DNA of 64,000 bases, taken from the NCBI GenBank assembly GCA_038874475.1, contig JAVZCJ010000002.1, positions 12,964 to 76,963 of the forward strand, in the 5' to 3' direction. Below the pieces are notes generated by a model. The model was not told the DNA's origin. It did not search any database and saw only the letters and a list, made by a program, of their open reading frames with translations. A program made the position numbers and the translations under genes. This stretch comes from Nitrososphaerota archaeon. GTDB lineage: Archaea; Thermoproteota; Nitrososphaeria_A; Caldarchaeales; JAVZCJ01. Below are positions 9,834-11,168 of this stretch, piece by piece (position 1 is the stretch's first letter; the number at the start of each line of letters is the position of its first letter).

Positions 9834-9910
9834 AAGCTTTTCTATTAAGAATTATTCCGCTACCCCCTAATTTGCAAAGGGGTATATAAAGAGCAGCAAA
9901 AAAAGCAAAA
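9834..9910. repeat. Direct repeat B, copy 1 (flank of vapBC cassette 2)
   Basis: AAGCTTTTCTATTAAGAATTATTCCGCTACCCCCTAATTTGCAAAGGGGTATATAAAGAGCAGCAAAAAAAGCAAAA is about 80% identical to 11094..11168. It contains a CCCC-TAATTTGCAAA-GGGG hairpin-capable segment and a TATATAAAG TATA-like box. Confidence 0.6.
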
Positions 9911-10300
9911 TAATAATCTATTTCTTATTTTTCCAATATGAAAAGATCTGTAATAATTGGAATTATAAAATGAAAGAAATTTTAAAAAAAAGTTAATAAT
10001 TTATTTTATTGAATGCTTATTTCCCTTTATTTTTCTCTATTTTATTTTGTAATTTTTATTTTACAAGAATAATTAAAAGAGAATTTATAGAAGCTTTAAA
10101 ATAAACTAAAAATACTTTGTAGGAATCTTCATTACAATTTTGAACACTTATGGAAAATTCTTTCTTATTTTTGTATAACTTGTTTTTTTTTAAAATTTTA
10201 ATTAAAAGTAAAATTATTTTTCCTAAAAAACATGCATTAAATCTTAAAAATGGAATGTTTGTTTCATAAATTCTATAGCTTTCTGCATTTGTCATTTTCT

Positions 10301-10786
10301 TTATTTCCTACTTATTAACTCTCTAACTCTATTTTCGTCTTTTATATTTACAGCTTTTAAACCTGTTTTTTGTGCAGCACTAACAAGATTCTTATCACTA
10401 CTGAGTAGCACATCACTACCTGAATAAACACAAGTTTGAATCTGGAGAGCATCAGCCTCATAGATATGCTCCTTTAATATTAAAGGCCAAGTTTCAACAA
10501 GCATCGTATTTAGAACCGGAAAAACTTCTAATATTTTTAAATGCAACAACCTTATGATTTCACTTGTAAAGTTTTCAAGAACCTTTGTAAACTCTTCTTC
10601 GCTAAGCCACTTTCTCCTTCTCCTTTCATCCAGCACTCCTAATACCTCGCCAAAATTCCAGATAGATGTAGCCATGGATAGCTCACCTGCCCAGCCTTTA
10701 TCGAAAACATAATCTACCACAAGGCTATCTGTCTCAGACACATATCGCTTAACTATCACACTACTATCGAGGTAAACCTTCAACAC
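10301..10786 (-). CDS. vapC: PIN-domain toxin VapC (cassette 2)
   Basis: 161 aa. MLKVYLDSSVIV N-terminal acidic motif, an internal E, and the C-terminal SSD. Overlaps the upstream RHH gene. The DNA is visibly more GC-rich than its neighbours. Confidence 0.75.
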   Translation of the reverse strand: MLKVYLDSSVIVKRYVSETDSLVVDYVFDKGWAGELSMATSIWNFGEVLGVLDERRRRKWLSEEEFTKVLENFTSEIIRLLHLKILEVFPVLNTMLVETWPLILKEHIYEADALQIQTCVYSGSDVLLSSDKNLVSAAQKTGLKAVNIKDENRVRELISRK

Positions 10787-11063
10787 GCCTACCCCTCATC
10801 TTCTTAATAAGAACTTCTGAAGGTGGGCCTCGGAGTTGAGGTCTATTACGTTTTACCTCTTCAGGGGAAAATACTGTTTTTACATTTATGCCCATGTTTT
10901 TAAAGGCTTTCTCAATCTCCTCGTCAATCATAGAAGCTCGAAGCAGATTTTCAACTTCATCGCTTAATTTTCTCAAGGTACCATGCTTCTTCAAAACGGC
11001 TTCTTTAAACCTAATCCACAATTCCTCGTTAAGATAAAGGCTAACTTTTTTCAAGCATACCAC
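10764..11063 (-). CDS. vapB: Ribbon-helix-helix (CopG-like) antitoxin VapB (cassette 2)
   Basis: 99 aa. VSLYLNEELWIRFKEAVLKKHGTLRKLSDEVENLL has the RHH topology. Overlaps vapC. Confidence 0.65.
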   Translation of the reverse strand: MVCLKKVSLYLNEELWIRFKEAVLKKHGTLRKLSDEVENLLRASMIDEEIEKAFKNMGINVKTVFSPEEVKRNRPQLRGPPSEVLIKKMRGRRVEGLPR

Positions 11064-11093
11064 TAAAGAAGTTTACATGTAAACTGGTATTTA

Positions 11094-11168
11094 AAGCTTT
11101 TTCTACTAAGAACTATCCCGCTACCTTTTAATTTGTAAAGGAGCATATAAGGAGCAAAAAGTAAAAAA
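11094..11168. repeat. Direct repeat B, copy 2
   Basis: AAGCTTTTTCTACTAAGAACTATCCCGCTACCTTTTAATTTGTAAAGGAGCATATAAGGAGCAAAAAGTAAAAAAAT matches 9834..9910. Confidence 0.6.

What the first reader, a model, noticed from the sequence alone, without database searches (positions are those of the whole stretch)
9834..11168. VapBC cassette 2: GC-richer TA pair flanked by a different ~75-bp direct repeat containing a hairpin and TATA-like box
The repeats at 9834..9910 and 11094..11168 are about 80% identical. They enclose only the RHH-vapB/PIN-vapC pair plus AT-rich filler. The vapBC coding DNA (for example GGTGGGCCTCGGAGTTGAGG) is conspicuously more GC-rich than the surrounding genome, consistent with recent horizontal acquisition. 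The repeat carries CCCC-TAATTTGCAAA-GGGG (stem-loop capable) followed by GGTATATAAAGAG.
Basis: seen in the sequence. Interest (0 to 1): 0.6.

Follow-up and report, generated by a model that had tools for sequence, protein, structure and literature searches.

The report
VapBC cassette between two CRISPR-leader copies
The two "flanking repeats" are copies of a CRISPR leader promoter: one is intact and drives a tiny three-repeat CRISPR array next door, and the other is a decaying fragment fused to a horizontally acquired, self-contained VapBC toxin-antitoxin cassette. This is an ordinary patch of an archaeal variable region with a tidy recombination scar.

Summary
The repeat is real: 9834-9910 vs 11094-11168, 78% identity, local-alignment z=15, and only two copies in the window. 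It is not a cassette-specific insertion repeat.

- **Left copy.** Read on the minus strand, it is the promoter core of a type I-A-style CRISPR leader. It sits 42 nt upstream of a 3-repeat mini-array (9645-9791) that the finding's coordinates missed. The same 24-nt repeat forms arrays of up to 145 units in at least 120 metagenome contigs. The same leader core precedes at least 13 of those arrays, at the same distance from the first repeat.
- **Right copy.** It is a paralogue of the left copy, mutated at family-invariant positions, with no array behind it. It ends exactly where the vapBC cassette begins.
- **Cassette (10301-~11096).** It carries its own TATA box, a palindromic operator (GTTTACATGTAAAC), vapB and a PIN vapC. 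This unit recurs in seven distinct archaeal neighbourhoods whose host G+C ranges from 26% to 53%, always at about 35-42% G+C itself. It is 83% identical in DNA to a copy in a 49% G+C host but only 77% identical to the copy in the sister lineage. Horizontal acquisition is therefore supported.
- **Hairpin.** It is no more stable than shuffled sequence.
- **Unresolved.** How the leader came to be duplicated.

Verdict: a new member of known kinds, of low to moderate interest.

The parts
11094..11168 (-). Right repeat copy ('R'): a degenerate, array-less fragment of the CRISPR leader promoter core (residual TATA CCTTATATGCT at 11142-11152). It is truncated at AAGCTT, where the vapBC cassette begins.
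   Evidence: 78% identical to the left copy. nhmmer with a profile of 14 leaders from outside the window gives E=1.6e-4 over 11078-11156. It is closer to the window's left copy (72%) than to any other family leader (44-66%). It is mutated at family-invariant positions: TTTATATA>CTTATATG, TTGCA>TTACA, GGGGGTAGC>AAAGGTAGC. No CRISPR repeat follows it.
11064..11096 (-). The vapBC cassette's own promoter and operator: TATA-like CTTTAAATACC (11086-11096) and the perfect palindrome GTTTACATGTAAAC (11071-11084), just upstream of the vapB TTG start.
   Evidence: TTAAATA-N3-GTTTACA(T/C)GT(T/A)AAC-TTCTT(T/C)AG(T/C)GG(T/C)AT(A/G)CTTG is conserved upstream of vapB in L158, L159, L160 and L166, and recognisably in L168 and L169. 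Similarity between loci stops immediately 5' of the TATA.
10764..11054 (-). vapB-like antitoxin gene (96 aa, TTG start). It overlaps vapC by 23 nt.
   Evidence: ORF. The conserved start codon was inferred from homologous loci. It is paired with the PIN gene in every homologous locus examined. The RHH fold is not confirmed: ParG E=0.041; the AF2 model (pLDDT 79.6) shows an extended N-terminus then helices 10-24 and 30-53; there is no PDB fold match.
10301..10786 (-). vapC toxin gene (161 aa, PIN domain).
   Evidence: Pfam PF01850 E=6.3e-6, 27.2 bits, above the gathering score of 23.6. The acidic residues D7, E47, D112 and D131 are present; E47, D112 and D131 are invariant in 17 homologues. An identical protein is named VapC family toxin in an NCBI MAG.
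9911..10300 (.). AT-rich spacer ('filler', 17% G+C). It is not part of the conserved vapBC cassette. It may be the low-complexity distal part of the intact leader, or host DNA carried in by the rearrangement.
   Evidence: G+C is 0.174. No homology was found to L158 or other cassettes, to cassette 1's filler, to the region right of R, or to the sister lineage's distal leader. It contains no degenerate CRISPR repeats. Between strains it is more variable than the coding DNA.
9792..9910 (-). Intact CRISPR leader, promoter-proximal ~120 nt. It contains the left repeat copy ('L', 9834-9910), TATA CTTTATATACC (9881-9891), the conserved TTGCA and GGGGGTAGCGG motifs, the AAGCTT palindrome region, and the leader-repeat junction AAGGTCG|GAATCTC.
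   Evidence: nhmmer with the external leader profile gives E=3e-24 (81 bits) over 9784-9902. The same core sits at the same position, with its 3' end about 65-70 nt upstream of the first repeat, in L047, L055, L058, L069, L072, L104, L121, L127, L132, L137, L150 and L165. In L127 it lies between csa3 and the array of a type I-A cas cassette.
9645..9791 (-). Orphan CRISPR mini-array: three 24-nt repeats (GAATCTCATA[A/T]AGAGAATT[G/A]AAAG at 9768-9791, 9706-9729 and 9645-9668) and two spacers (38 and 37 nt).
   Evidence: Three matches against 0.01 expected. The same repeat forms arrays of up to 145 units in at least 120 metagenome contigs. Rfam CRISPR-DR45 hits lie exactly on the repeats, below the gathering score (E=0.015 and 0.14). 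Pfam searches of 55 window ORFs, including all but seven shadow ORFs of at least 110 aa, found no cas genes.
8012..9539 (-). RtcB RNA ligase gene (8012-9469) and its promoter (GGCTTAAATATAACC at 9515-9529). This is the conserved anchor used to find sister-lineage loci. It is context, not part of the system.
   Evidence: Pfam RtcB E=1.6e-175. It is 90% identical in DNA to L162, L163 and L165 over 8008-9539 only.

Best explanation
The region is a rearranged CRISPR locus in the variable part of an AT-rich archaeal genome. A self-contained vapBC toxin-antitoxin cassette has been joined to it.

Reading the minus strand, the order is:
1. A decaying partial copy of the CRISPR leader promoter (R, 11168-11094).
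2. The cassette's own TATA box and palindromic operator.
3. vapB, then the PIN toxin vapC.
4. 390 nt of host-like AT-rich DNA.
5. An intact leader (L core, 9910-9834).
6. A three-repeat orphan CRISPR array.
7. The RtcB promoter.

**Shown.**
- L is a bona fide leader of a type I-A-style repeat family.
- R is its paralogue, array-less and degenerate at invariant promoter positions.
- The horizontally mobile unit is only about 0.79 kb (TATA to the vapC stop). It recurs in unrelated neighbourhoods across Thermoproteota-type archaea, with its own G+C content.
- R ends exactly where that unit begins.

**Inferred.**
- The cassette was joined to a leader copy by illegitimate recombination at a short promoter microhomology. 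The leader reads ...GAAAAGCTTAAT... and the cassette upstream region reads ...GAAAGCTTAAAT...
- In the process the array-proximal leader, and any repeats behind R, were removed or never copied.
- R is now a non-functional scar. vapBC is transcribed from its own promoter and autoregulated by VapB (or VapBC) binding the palindrome.
- VapC acts as a PIN ribonuclease that arrests growth when VapB is lost.
- As others have proposed for Sulfolobales, the pair may stabilise this deletion-prone CRISPR-bearing segment.

**Open.** The evidence does not say whether the two leader copies pre-existed as tandem loci or were produced by the insertion event (Campbell-type or template-switch duplication).
For: **CRISPR identity of the left side.**
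- Three 24-nt repeats spaced 61-62 nt apart.
- The repeat is found in at least 120 metagenome contigs, in arrays of up to 145 units.
- Rfam CRISPR-DR45 matches lie on the repeats.
- The leader core is conserved upstream of the first repeat in at least 13 external arrays.
- In L127 it lies between csa3 and the array of a type I-A cassette.

**Status of L and R.**
- The external leader profile hits L at E=3e-24 and R at E=1.6e-4. Nothing else in the 64 kb scores below E=0.2.
- R is closest to L and shares lineage-specific states with it, but is mutated at family-invariant positions.

**Cassette limits and mobility.**
- Homology with L158 covers only 10302-11102.
- The TATA-operator-TTG start is conserved in L158, L159, L160, L166, L168 and L169, and similarity ends at the TATA.
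- The seven neighbourhoods are all different.
- Cassette G+C is 0.35-0.42 in hosts of 0.26-0.53.
- DNA identity to the window is 83% (L159) and 79% (L160), against 77% for the sister-lineage copy (L158), whose flanking genes are 88% identical to the window.
- GC3 is 0.32-0.36 against 0.15 +/- 0.07.

**Junction.** The leader sequence AGAAAAGCTTAATTTGAG, the cassette sequence (L159) CTGAAAGCTTAAATACTGG and the window sequence AGAAAAAGCTTTAAATACC were read.

**The leader is a recurrent breakpoint.**
- In sister-lineage contig L162 the leader is truncated just beyond the same AAGCTT palindrome and abuts a TnpB-like fragment, with no array.
- In L165 the leader and array are inverted relative to RtcB, and no vapBC is present.

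**Toxin identity.** PIN above the Pfam cut-off, with the four acidic residues.

**Precedent.** vapBC pairs interspersed with CRISPR-Cas modules in variable regions of Sulfolobales, proposed to aid their maintenance (PMC4390879 section 8; PMC3119797).
Against: - No cas genes lie within 64 kb, and no spacer matched viral contigs. Activity of the mini-array is therefore unproven.
- The microhomology is only about 9-10 nt, and the donor sequence is inferred from homologues in other genomes, not observed.
- R's match to the leader family is weak (17 bits).
- No true empty site was found. The sister lineage is rearranged here, and its own vapBC sits at a synteny break rather than a clean insertion.
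- A second TA cassette in the window (3496-4718) is also bracketed by a ~56-nt, 79% direct repeat plus ~390 nt of AT-rich DNA. This hints at a common insertion-with-duplication mechanism rather than a pre-existing tandem leader.
- The RHH fold of VapB and its operator binding are not demonstrated.
Confidence: 0.72

Rival explanations
1. Insertion-generated duplication. A DNA segment consisting of the vapBC cassette plus ~390 nt of AT-rich DNA entered a single CRISPR leader and duplicated ~75-110 nt of it. Two routes are possible: Campbell-type single crossover of a circular intermediate already carrying a leader fragment, or microhomology-mediated template switching during repair. On this reading the two repeats are products of the event, and they have since diverged to 78%.
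For: - The repeats bracket exactly the cassette plus filler.
- R is closest to L among all family leaders and shares lineage-specific states with it.
- Microhomology is present at the R/cassette junction.
- A second TA cassette in the window has the same geometry, with an unrelated ~56-nt direct repeat and ~390 nt of AT-rich DNA.
- The 3-nt patch at 9849-9851 is shared by L and R in the window but not in the strain variant L001/L002. This suggests the copies still exchange sequence.
Against: - Divergence between the copies is 22%, and R alone has lost family-invariant positions, so any such event is old.
- The filler has no detectable homology to anything, including sequences next to other copies of the cassette.
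- No empty site is available.
- The model still needs a prior fusion of a leader fragment to the cassette.
Confidence: 0.3
2. The ~75-bp direct repeats are the ends (att sites or a target-site duplication) of a mobile TA cassette. The hairpin and TATA-like box are part of the element's recombination or expression signals, in the manner of an integron-style gene cassette or a MITE-like carrier.
For: Direct repeats bracket a compositionally foreign TA pair. Two such cassettes occur in the window.
Against: - The left copy is a canonical CRISPR leader with its array attached, conserved in at least 13 other arrays.
- Other copies of this vapBC cassette carry neither the repeat nor the filler.
- The longest run of identity between the copies is 8 nt.
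- No integrase or transposase gene lies within or beside the unit.
- The hairpin is no better than shuffles and is not conserved.
Confidence: 0.05
3. Functional co-option. R is kept as a working CRISPR-regulon promoter or regulator-binding module placed upstream of vapBC. Toxin-antitoxin expression is thereby coupled to the factor that controls leader transcription, for example a Csa3-type regulator binding the GCTACCC/GGGTAGC inverted repeat.
For: - The leader-core module can exist without an array. A well-preserved solo copy lies in L069 (10493-10546, E=4e-11), between type III RAMP genes and the trailer of an array.
- csa3 lies directly upstream of the leader in L127.
- R is identical in the strain-variant contigs that cover it, while L differs at 5 positions.
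- A PIN gene sits about 70 nt upstream of the leader in L047.
Against: - R is mutated at exactly the positions invariant in the family: the TATA, TTGCA, the GGGGG run and the upstream arm of the inverted repeat.
- vapBC has its own conserved TATA and operator, and these suffice in six other loci that lack any leader sequence.
Confidence: 0.07

Closest known systems
VapBC type II toxin-antitoxin pairs of archaeal variable regions, interspersed with CRISPR-Cas modules (Sulfolobales; Garrett et al. 2015, PMC4390879; You et al. 2011, PMC3119797)
   Same: - A PIN toxin preceded by a small overlapping antitoxin gene.
- Located in a compositionally patchy, rearrangement-prone region rich in other TA pairs: four PIN genes and one MNT/HEPN pair in the window.
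- Physically next to CRISPR elements.
- Closely similar pairs are shared between different genomes.
   Different: - The host is an uncultivated AT-rich archaeon (about 29% G+C). Submitters label its MAGs Nitrososphaerota or Aenigmatarchaeota. It is not a Sulfolobus relative.
- The pair sits between a leader remnant and an intact leader of an orphan array, not inside a cas cassette.
- The antitoxin matches none of the three Sulfolobales VapB families at significant scores.
Type I-A CRISPR leaders and 24-25-nt crenarchaeal repeats ending ATTGAAAG (Sulfolobales subfamilies; PMC4390879 section 4.1). Recalling the S. solfataricus repeat GATAATCTCTTATAGAATTGAAAG rests on my own knowledge.
   Same: - A 24-nt repeat ending ATTGAAAG, with 37-38-nt spacers.
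- An AT-rich leader with conserved motifs and an internal promoter.
- A conserved leader-repeat junction.
- csa3 and a type I-A cas cassette next to the same leader in a metagenome contig (L127).
   Different: - There are only three repeats and no cas genes within 64 kb.
- A second, truncated leader copy lies 1.26 kb away in the same orientation.
- The leader sequence family itself (GCTACCC-TTTATATA-N-TTGCA-N-GGGGGTAGCGG) is, as far as these searches show, undescribed.
Orphan or defective CRISPR loci, e.g. Acidianus hospitalis locus Ahos-40, which lacks both a leader and cas genes (PMC3119797)
   Same: Evidence of decay and rearrangement of CRISPR modules in variable regions, with components uncoupled from one another.
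   Different: The uncoupling here is the reverse. A leader fragment survives without repeats (R), beside a small array that keeps its leader but has no nearby cas genes.
Integron gene cassettes with attC sites, including those reported in Archaea (own knowledge: Ghaly et al. 2022, not checked here)
   Same: Units of about 1 kb, often encoding TA pairs, separated by imperfect repeats of 60-140 bp that could form a hairpin.
   Different: There is no integron integrase, no attC-type structured palindrome (fold z about -0.4 to -1.0) and no serial array of cassettes. One 'repeat' is demonstrably a CRISPR leader.

Membership tests
VapBC type II toxin-antitoxin | Toxin is a PIN-domain protein with the conserved acidic active-site residues | tested here: met
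   Pfam PF01850 at 27.2 bits, above the cut-off of 23.6. D7, E47, D112 and D131 are present; E47, D112 and D131 are invariant in 17 homologues. There is no NCBIfam equivalog or PDB sequence match.
VapBC type II toxin-antitoxin | Small antitoxin gene immediately upstream in the same operon, co-inherited with the toxin | tested here: met
   vapB (96 aa) overlaps vapC by 23 nt. The pair is conserved together in L158, L159, L160, L166, L168 and L169.
VapBC type II toxin-antitoxin | Antitoxin N-terminus is a recognised DNA-binding fold (RHH, AbrB, PHD/YefM or HTH) | tested here: inconclusive
   Only sub-threshold RHH-type hits were found: ParG E=0.041, RHH_1 E=0.022 in one homologue, MatP_C RHH E=0.14. 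A profile search against PDB gave nothing relevant. The AF2 model (pLDDT 79.6) shows an extended N-terminus followed by two helices, which is compatible with RHH, but Foldseek found no match.
VapBC type II toxin-antitoxin | Palindromic operator overlapping the promoter (autoregulation) | tested here: met
   The perfect palindrome GTTTACATGTAAAC lies at 11071-11084, between the TATA and the start codon. It is conserved in homologous loci from hosts of 26-53% G+C. Binding was not tested.
VapBC type II toxin-antitoxin | Toxicity of VapC and its neutralisation by VapB | not testable with these tools
   This requires expression experiments.
CRISPR array with leader (type I-A-like) | Identical short direct repeats regularly interspaced by unique spacers of similar length | tested here: met
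   Three 24-nt repeats and two spacers of 37-38 nt at 9645-9791. The same repeat forms large arrays in at least 120 contigs. Rfam CRISPR-DR45 matches are below the gathering score (29.3 against 37 bits).
CRISPR array with leader (type I-A-like) | Conserved AT-rich leader with a promoter directly upstream of the first repeat | tested here: met
   For the left copy: the external-profile search gives E=3e-24, and the geometry matches at least 13 arrays. Promoter activity is inferred from the TTTATATA box only.
CRISPR array with leader (type I-A-like) | The right copy (11094-11168) is a functional leader, i.e. followed by repeats and with intact conserved motifs | tested here: not met
   No repeat, even a degenerate one, lies downstream. 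The invariant TATA, TTGCA and GGGGG positions are mutated. The profile match is weak (17 bits).
CRISPR array with leader (type I-A-like) | Associated cas genes | tested here: not met
   Pfam scans of 55 ORFs, including all but seven shadow ORFs of at least 110 aa, found none in the 64-kb window. The rest of the genome is not available. In L127 the same leader and repeat accompany csa3, csa5, cas7, cas5, cas3' and cas3''.
Site-specifically integrated element / gene cassette bounded by att-type direct repeats | The repeats delimit the transferred DNA, share an identical core, and a recombinase is present | tested here: not met
   The transferred unit, defined by six homologous loci, excludes both repeats and the filler. 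The longest identical run is 8 nt. No integrase or transposase is present.

The most novel reading that the evidence does not exclude
CRISPR leader promoters, and archaeal BRE/TATA elements more generally, may act as landing pads for transposase-free TA cassettes. A minimal vapBC unit that begins exactly at its own TATA box would be captured by recombination between similar promoter elements (here ...AAAGCTTAA...). This would leave 'solo leader' scars and flanking duplications. The same process would explain the second repeat-bracketed TA cassette in the window, the leader truncated at the same palindrome in the sister lineage, and the scattering of this cassette family across Thermoproteota genomes.
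Probability: 0.15. Interest if true: 0.5.

Novelty: new member of a known kind. Interest (0 to 1): 0.27.

Why it matters
The finding turns an apparent "cassette with terminal repeats" into a documented example of how CRISPR loci and toxin-antitoxin modules become entangled in archaeal variable regions. Three points are of some use:

- It defines a previously uncharacterised leader sequence family for a widespread 24-nt hot-spring archaeal repeat. The family has a conserved inverted repeat bracketing the TATA box, which is a candidate regulator site.
- It shows that a VapBC family moves as a ~0.79-kb unit running precisely from its TATA box to its stop codon. That constrains how such cassettes spread without their own recombinase.
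- It gives a concrete junction and a 'solo leader' scar that can be searched for genome-wide.

None of this overturns current understanding. VapBC pairs next to CRISPR modules, and decaying CRISPR components, are known.

Tried and rejected
- **Leader core in public collections.** The pattern CCGCTACCNNNTAATTTGNAAAGG gave 0 hits in genome contigs and 0 in metagenome contigs. The window's own genome is not in those sets, so genome-wide copy number could not be measured.
- **Exact VapC look-up.** It returned only Logan contigs under 1.4 kb, from the same population and with the same arrangement. No polymorphic empty site was found.
- **RtcB-anchored relatives.** These loci are rearranged: the leader and array are inverted, or truncated next to a TnpB-like fragment. 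No clean empty site is available.
- **Sister-lineage vapBC site (L158).** I first read the window as its empty site. The genes beyond the HAD hydrolase are not homologous, so it is a synteny break, not an empty site.
- **Filler homology.** Tests against R's distal flank, cassette 1's filler, the sister's distal leader and all fetched loci were all non-significant.
- **Degenerate CRISPR repeats.** None were found in the filler or to the right of R beyond shuffle expectation.
- **Spacers.** Neither has an exact match in viral contigs.
- **Hairpin.** It is not more stable than shuffles on either strand.
- **Rfam.** Nothing at gathering thresholds in the window. Only sub-threshold CRISPR-DR45 hits appeared. 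No tRNA is present, so a tRNA-att scenario is ruled out.
- **VapB fold.** Pfam, NCBIfam, a PDB profile search, AF2 and Foldseek did not establish RHH.
- **Cassette 1.** The homologue search found only same-species contigs with the same arrangement. An apparent match of its repeat to the RtcB-POR spacer of relatives is low-complexity A/T sequence.
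Full report
**Observation**

The two stretches 9834-9910 and 11094-11168 are a genuine direct repeat. They align at 61 of 78 columns (78%). The local-alignment score is 81, against 26.6 +/- 3.6 for shuffled sequence. A degenerate core pattern matches exactly twice in 64 kb, with none expected.

Between them lie only three things:
- a 96-aa vapB-like ORF (10764-11054, TTG start);
- a 161-aa PIN-domain vapC (10301-10786; Pfam PIN 27.2 bits, cut-off 23.6);
- 390 nt of 17% G+C DNA.

The coding DNA is richer in G+C than the window. vapC is 0.37 and vapB 0.39, against 0.29. 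GC3 is 0.32 and 0.36, against an ORF mean of 0.153 +/- 0.073. Other genes nearby (3662-6678, 12240-19763) are also GC3-high.

The proposed hairpin folds no better than dinucleotide shuffles on either strand (z -0.35 to -1.0).

**What the left repeat is**

Immediately to the left of the finding, at 9645-9791, lie three copies of a 24-nt sequence spaced 61-62 nt apart. Read on the minus strand the unit is GAATCTCATA(A/T)AGAGAATT(G/A)AAAG. It ends in ATTGAAAG, like crenarchaeal type I/III repeats (that comparison is from my own knowledge). The spacers are 38 and 37 nt.

Evidence that this is a real CRISPR repeat:
- Scanning JGI metagenomes for the repeat returned at least 120 contigs, with arrays of up to 145 units.
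- Rfam's CRISPR-DR45 model hits two of the three repeats (9768-9791 and 9645-9668) below its gathering score (E=0.015 and 0.14).

On the minus strand, the left copy of the finding's repeat therefore sits directly upstream of the first repeat. It is the leader.

In at least 13 of the fetched arrays the same sequence lies with its 3' end about 65-70 nt upstream of repeat 1. These are L047, L055, L058, L060, L069, L072, L104, L121, L127, L132, L137, L150 and L165. The sequence is ...(G)CTACCC-TTTATATA-CCCYWTTGCARGTTA-GGGGGTAGCGG..., followed by an AAGCTT-containing palindrome and the junction ...GGGTCG|GAATCTC.

In L127 this leader lies between csa3 and the array of a type I-A cassette containing Csa5, Cas7/Csa2, Cas5, Cas3' and the HD nuclease Cas3''.

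I built an nhmmer profile only from 14 leaders outside the window. It finds the left copy at E=3e-24 (81 bits) and the right copy at E=1.6e-4 (17 bits). Nothing else in the window scores below E=0.2.

- The 'TATA-like box' is the leader's archaeal TATA box read backwards (CTTTATATACC, 9881-9891, minus strand).
- The 'hairpin' is the conserved stretch between the TATA box and the GGGGGTAGC motif. In the L060/L069/L104/L127 sub-family the C-run is replaced by T's with no compensating change, so a conserved stem is not supported.

What is conserved is a 7-bp inverted repeat, GCTACCC...GGGTAGC, bracketing the TATA box.

**What the right repeat is**

The right copy is more similar to the window's own left copy (72% over the 88-nt trimmed alignment) than to any other family member (44-66%). 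It shares lineage-specific states with the left copy.

It is changed at the positions that are invariant across the family:
- TTTATATA to CTTATATG;
- TTGCA to TTACA;
- GGGGGTAGC to AAAGGTAGC.

No CRISPR repeat follows it, even with 8-10 mismatches. Its similarity to the left copy stops at AAGCTT (11094). I read it as a decaying, array-less leader paralogue.

**What the vapBC unit is**

The VapC protein is 100% identical to one that NCBI names as a VapC family toxin in a 'Nitrososphaerota archaeon' MAG, on a 415-kb contig. It has hundreds of 50-81% homologues in Bathyarchaeia, Nitrososphaeria and other Thermoproteota MAGs.

I fetched seven homologous places (nine loci: L158, L159, L160/L161, L166/L167, L168, L169, plus same-population Logan contigs). 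Every neighbourhood is different:
- HAD hydrolase with an MNT-HEPN pair;
- Meth_synt_2 and an FGGY kinase;
- thioredoxin and ArsP;
- DUF424 and NMD3;
- M48 peptidases.

All share a compact upstream element: (C)TTAAATA-N3-GTTTACA(T/C)GT(T/A)AAC-TTCTTTAGTGGTATACTTG. It comprises a TATA box, a palindrome and a TTG start. Similarity between loci ends immediately 5' of the TATA and right after the vapC stop.

In the window this element occupies 11064-11096. The operator GTTTACATGTAAAC is at 11071-11084. The unit that moves is therefore about 0.79 kb (10301 to about 11096). It excludes both repeats and the filler.

Its G+C is 0.35-0.42 in hosts ranging from 0.26 to 0.53. The window's copy compares as follows:

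| Locus | Host | DNA identity to the window's cassette |
|---|---|---|
| L159 | 49% G+C | 83% |
| L160 | 49% G+C | 79% |
| L158 | sister lineage; flanking genes 88% identical to the window | 77% |

VapC keeps the PIN acidic residues D7, E47, D112 and D131.

VapB's RHH fold is only suggested. The evidence is ParG E=0.041 and an AF2 model with an extended N-terminus followed by helices 10-24 and 30-53. There is no fold match and no significant profile hit.

**The junction**

- The leader reads ...TAATAGAAAAGCTTAATTTGAGC...
- The cassette's upstream edge in L159 reads ...CCCTGAAAGCTTAAATACTGG...
- The window's R/cassette junction reads ...TAGTAGAAAAAGCTTTAAATACCAG...

The two parents share about 9-10 nt (AAAGCTTAA), which is itself a BRE/TATA-like motif. 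The RtcB promoter has the same motif (AAAGGCTTAAATATAACC, 9515-9529).

I infer an illegitimate, microhomology-guided join between a leader copy and the cassette's promoter. This step is inference, because the donor is not observed.

**Context and relatives**

The host is an archaeon. The window encodes ATP-dependent DNA ligase, deoxyhypusine synthase, RtcB and CODH/ACS. Window G+C is about 29%.

Pfam searches of 55 window ORFs, including all but seven shadow ORFs of at least 110 aa, found no cas gene, so the mini-array is orphan within this view.

The region from 3.5 to 21 kb looks like a variable region of the kind described for Sulfolobales, where vapBC pairs are interspersed with CRISPR-Cas modules and are thought to stabilise them (PMC4390879 section 8; PMC3119797). 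It holds:
- four PIN genes;
- an MNT-HEPN pair;
- gene fragments, including an amylase C-terminal fragment at 11378-11596;
- GC3-anomalous genes.

Sister-lineage contigs share only RtcB and its promoter with the window, at 90% DNA identity:
- **L165.** The leader and array are inverted relative to RtcB, and there is no vapBC.
- **L162.** The leader is cut just beyond the same AAGCTT palindrome and abuts a TnpB-like zinc-finger fragment, with no array.

The leader is thus a recurrent breakpoint.

Same-population Logan contigs keep the window's arrangement. They differ at 14 of 259 positions left of about 10055, but at only 6 of 1100 positions to the right of it.

**Mechanism and what remains open**

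The most likely reading (0.72) has these parts:
- L is a functional leader driving a 3-repeat array.
- R is a non-functional leader scar.
- vapBC is a horizontally acquired, self-promoted, autoregulated PIN toxin-antitoxin unit fused to R at a promoter microhomology.
- The pair possibly acts as an addiction module for this unstable segment.

The evidence does not decide whether R and L were two tandem CRISPR loci, one of which lost its array to the cassette, or whether the insertion itself duplicated about 75-110 nt of a single leader.

The second possibility gains some weight from cassette 1 (3496-4718). It is also bracketed by a ~56-nt, 79% direct repeat and contains ~390 nt of AT-rich DNA, although the two cassettes share no DNA similarity.

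A functional co-option of R as a CRISPR-regulon promoter is unlikely given its mutations. However, a well-preserved solo leader-core does exist in L069 (10493-10546) next to type III RAMP genes.

**Novelty**

VapBC pairs next to CRISPR modules, orphan arrays and decaying CRISPR components are all known. What is new here is modest:
- a leader family for a widespread hot-spring archaeal repeat;
- precise limits of a mobile vapBC unit;
- a 'solo leader' fusion scar.

Interest is about 0.27.

Noticed in passing
window 3496-4718: 'Cassette 1' is a second VapBC pair (PIN 3662-4063; VapB-like 4060-4272, both minus strand; GC3 0.25 and 0.31). It is bracketed by a different ~56-nt direct repeat (3496-3551 and 4663-4718, 79%, with a near-identical 38-nt core) and includes ~390 nt of 18% G+C DNA upstream of vapB. 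It shares no DNA similarity with cassette 2. The same geometry in two cassettes hints at a shared insertion-with-duplication mechanism. Only same-species contigs (L170 at 99.1%, L171 at 98.7%) were found; L171 ends exactly at 3552, the repeat boundary.
   Followed up: partly
window 9645-9791: An orphan three-repeat CRISPR array with an intact leader. No cas genes were found in the 64-kb window, and the two spacers have no exact match in IMG/VR contigs.
   Followed up: yes
L165 1-600; L162 2900-3600: In sister-lineage contigs (RtcB 90% identical in DNA) the leader and array are inverted relative to RtcB. In L162 the array and proximal leader are replaced by a TnpB-like fragment (…CPKCNRKLEK…) that abuts the AAGCTT palindrome. 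The leader is a recurrent rearrangement breakpoint.
   Followed up: partly
L069 10493-10546: A well-conserved solo copy of the leader-core promoter (GCTACCCTTTATATATCCTATTGCAAGATAGGGGATAGTGG, E=4e-11) with no repeats behind it. It lies between type III RAMP genes and the trailer end of an array, pointing into the array in antisense. The module may serve as a portable CRISPR-regulon promoter.
   Followed up: no
leader family alignment (window 9857-9897 and loci L047-L165): A conserved 7-bp inverted repeat, GCTACCC-N27-GGGTAGC, brackets the leader's TATA box. csa3 lies directly upstream of the leader in L127, so this is a candidate regulator-binding site. The upstream arm is degenerate in both window copies.
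   Followed up: no
window 9849-9851 vs L001/L002: A 3-nt patch (GAA) in the window's left copy matches the right copy. In strain-variant contigs the left copy has ACC, the state also seen in sister-lineage leaders. This may be a short gene-conversion tract between the two copies. More broadly, strain divergence is 5.4% over 9797-10055 but 0.5% over 10056-11159.
   Followed up: partly
window 6959-7854: An MNT (nucleotidyltransferase) and HEPN toxin-antitoxin pair with native-like composition (GC3 0.12), convergent with RtcB. A different MNT-HEPN pair sits next to the vapBC homologue in sister contig L158.
   Followed up: partly
window 19299-19763 (-) and 20845-21273 (+): Two further PIN-domain genes, making four PIN genes in 21 kb. 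One is GC3-high (0.28) and one native-like (0.11).
   Followed up: no
window 11378-12105: Gene debris lies just right of the R copy. There is a 72-aa alpha-amylase C-terminal domain fragment (Pfam E=2e-6). There are also broken ORFs with a Walker-B-like motif (LIVDEAH) that have no Pfam hit. This is consistent with a decaying variable region.
   Followed up: no
window 12240-18966: A 1648-aa secreted repeat protein and a 602-aa PKD-domain protein. They have the highest G+C in the window (0.40 and 0.36; GC3 0.33 and 0.29), so they are also compositionally foreign-looking.
   Followed up: no
L047 3847-4209; L040 12137-12565; L050 2552-2665: PIN-domain genes or fragments lie directly beside leaders or arrays of the same repeat family in unrelated metagenome contigs. 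In L047 the PIN gene ends about 70 nt upstream of the leader's TATA box. The TA-CRISPR adjacency recurs.
   Followed up: no
P0001 vs L170: Submitters' taxonomy conflicts for what is the same species by DNA identity (99%). One MAG is labelled Nitrososphaerota and another Candidatus Aenigmatarchaeota. The nearest RtcB in GTDB representatives is only 75% identical (Caldarchaeales).
   Followed up: no
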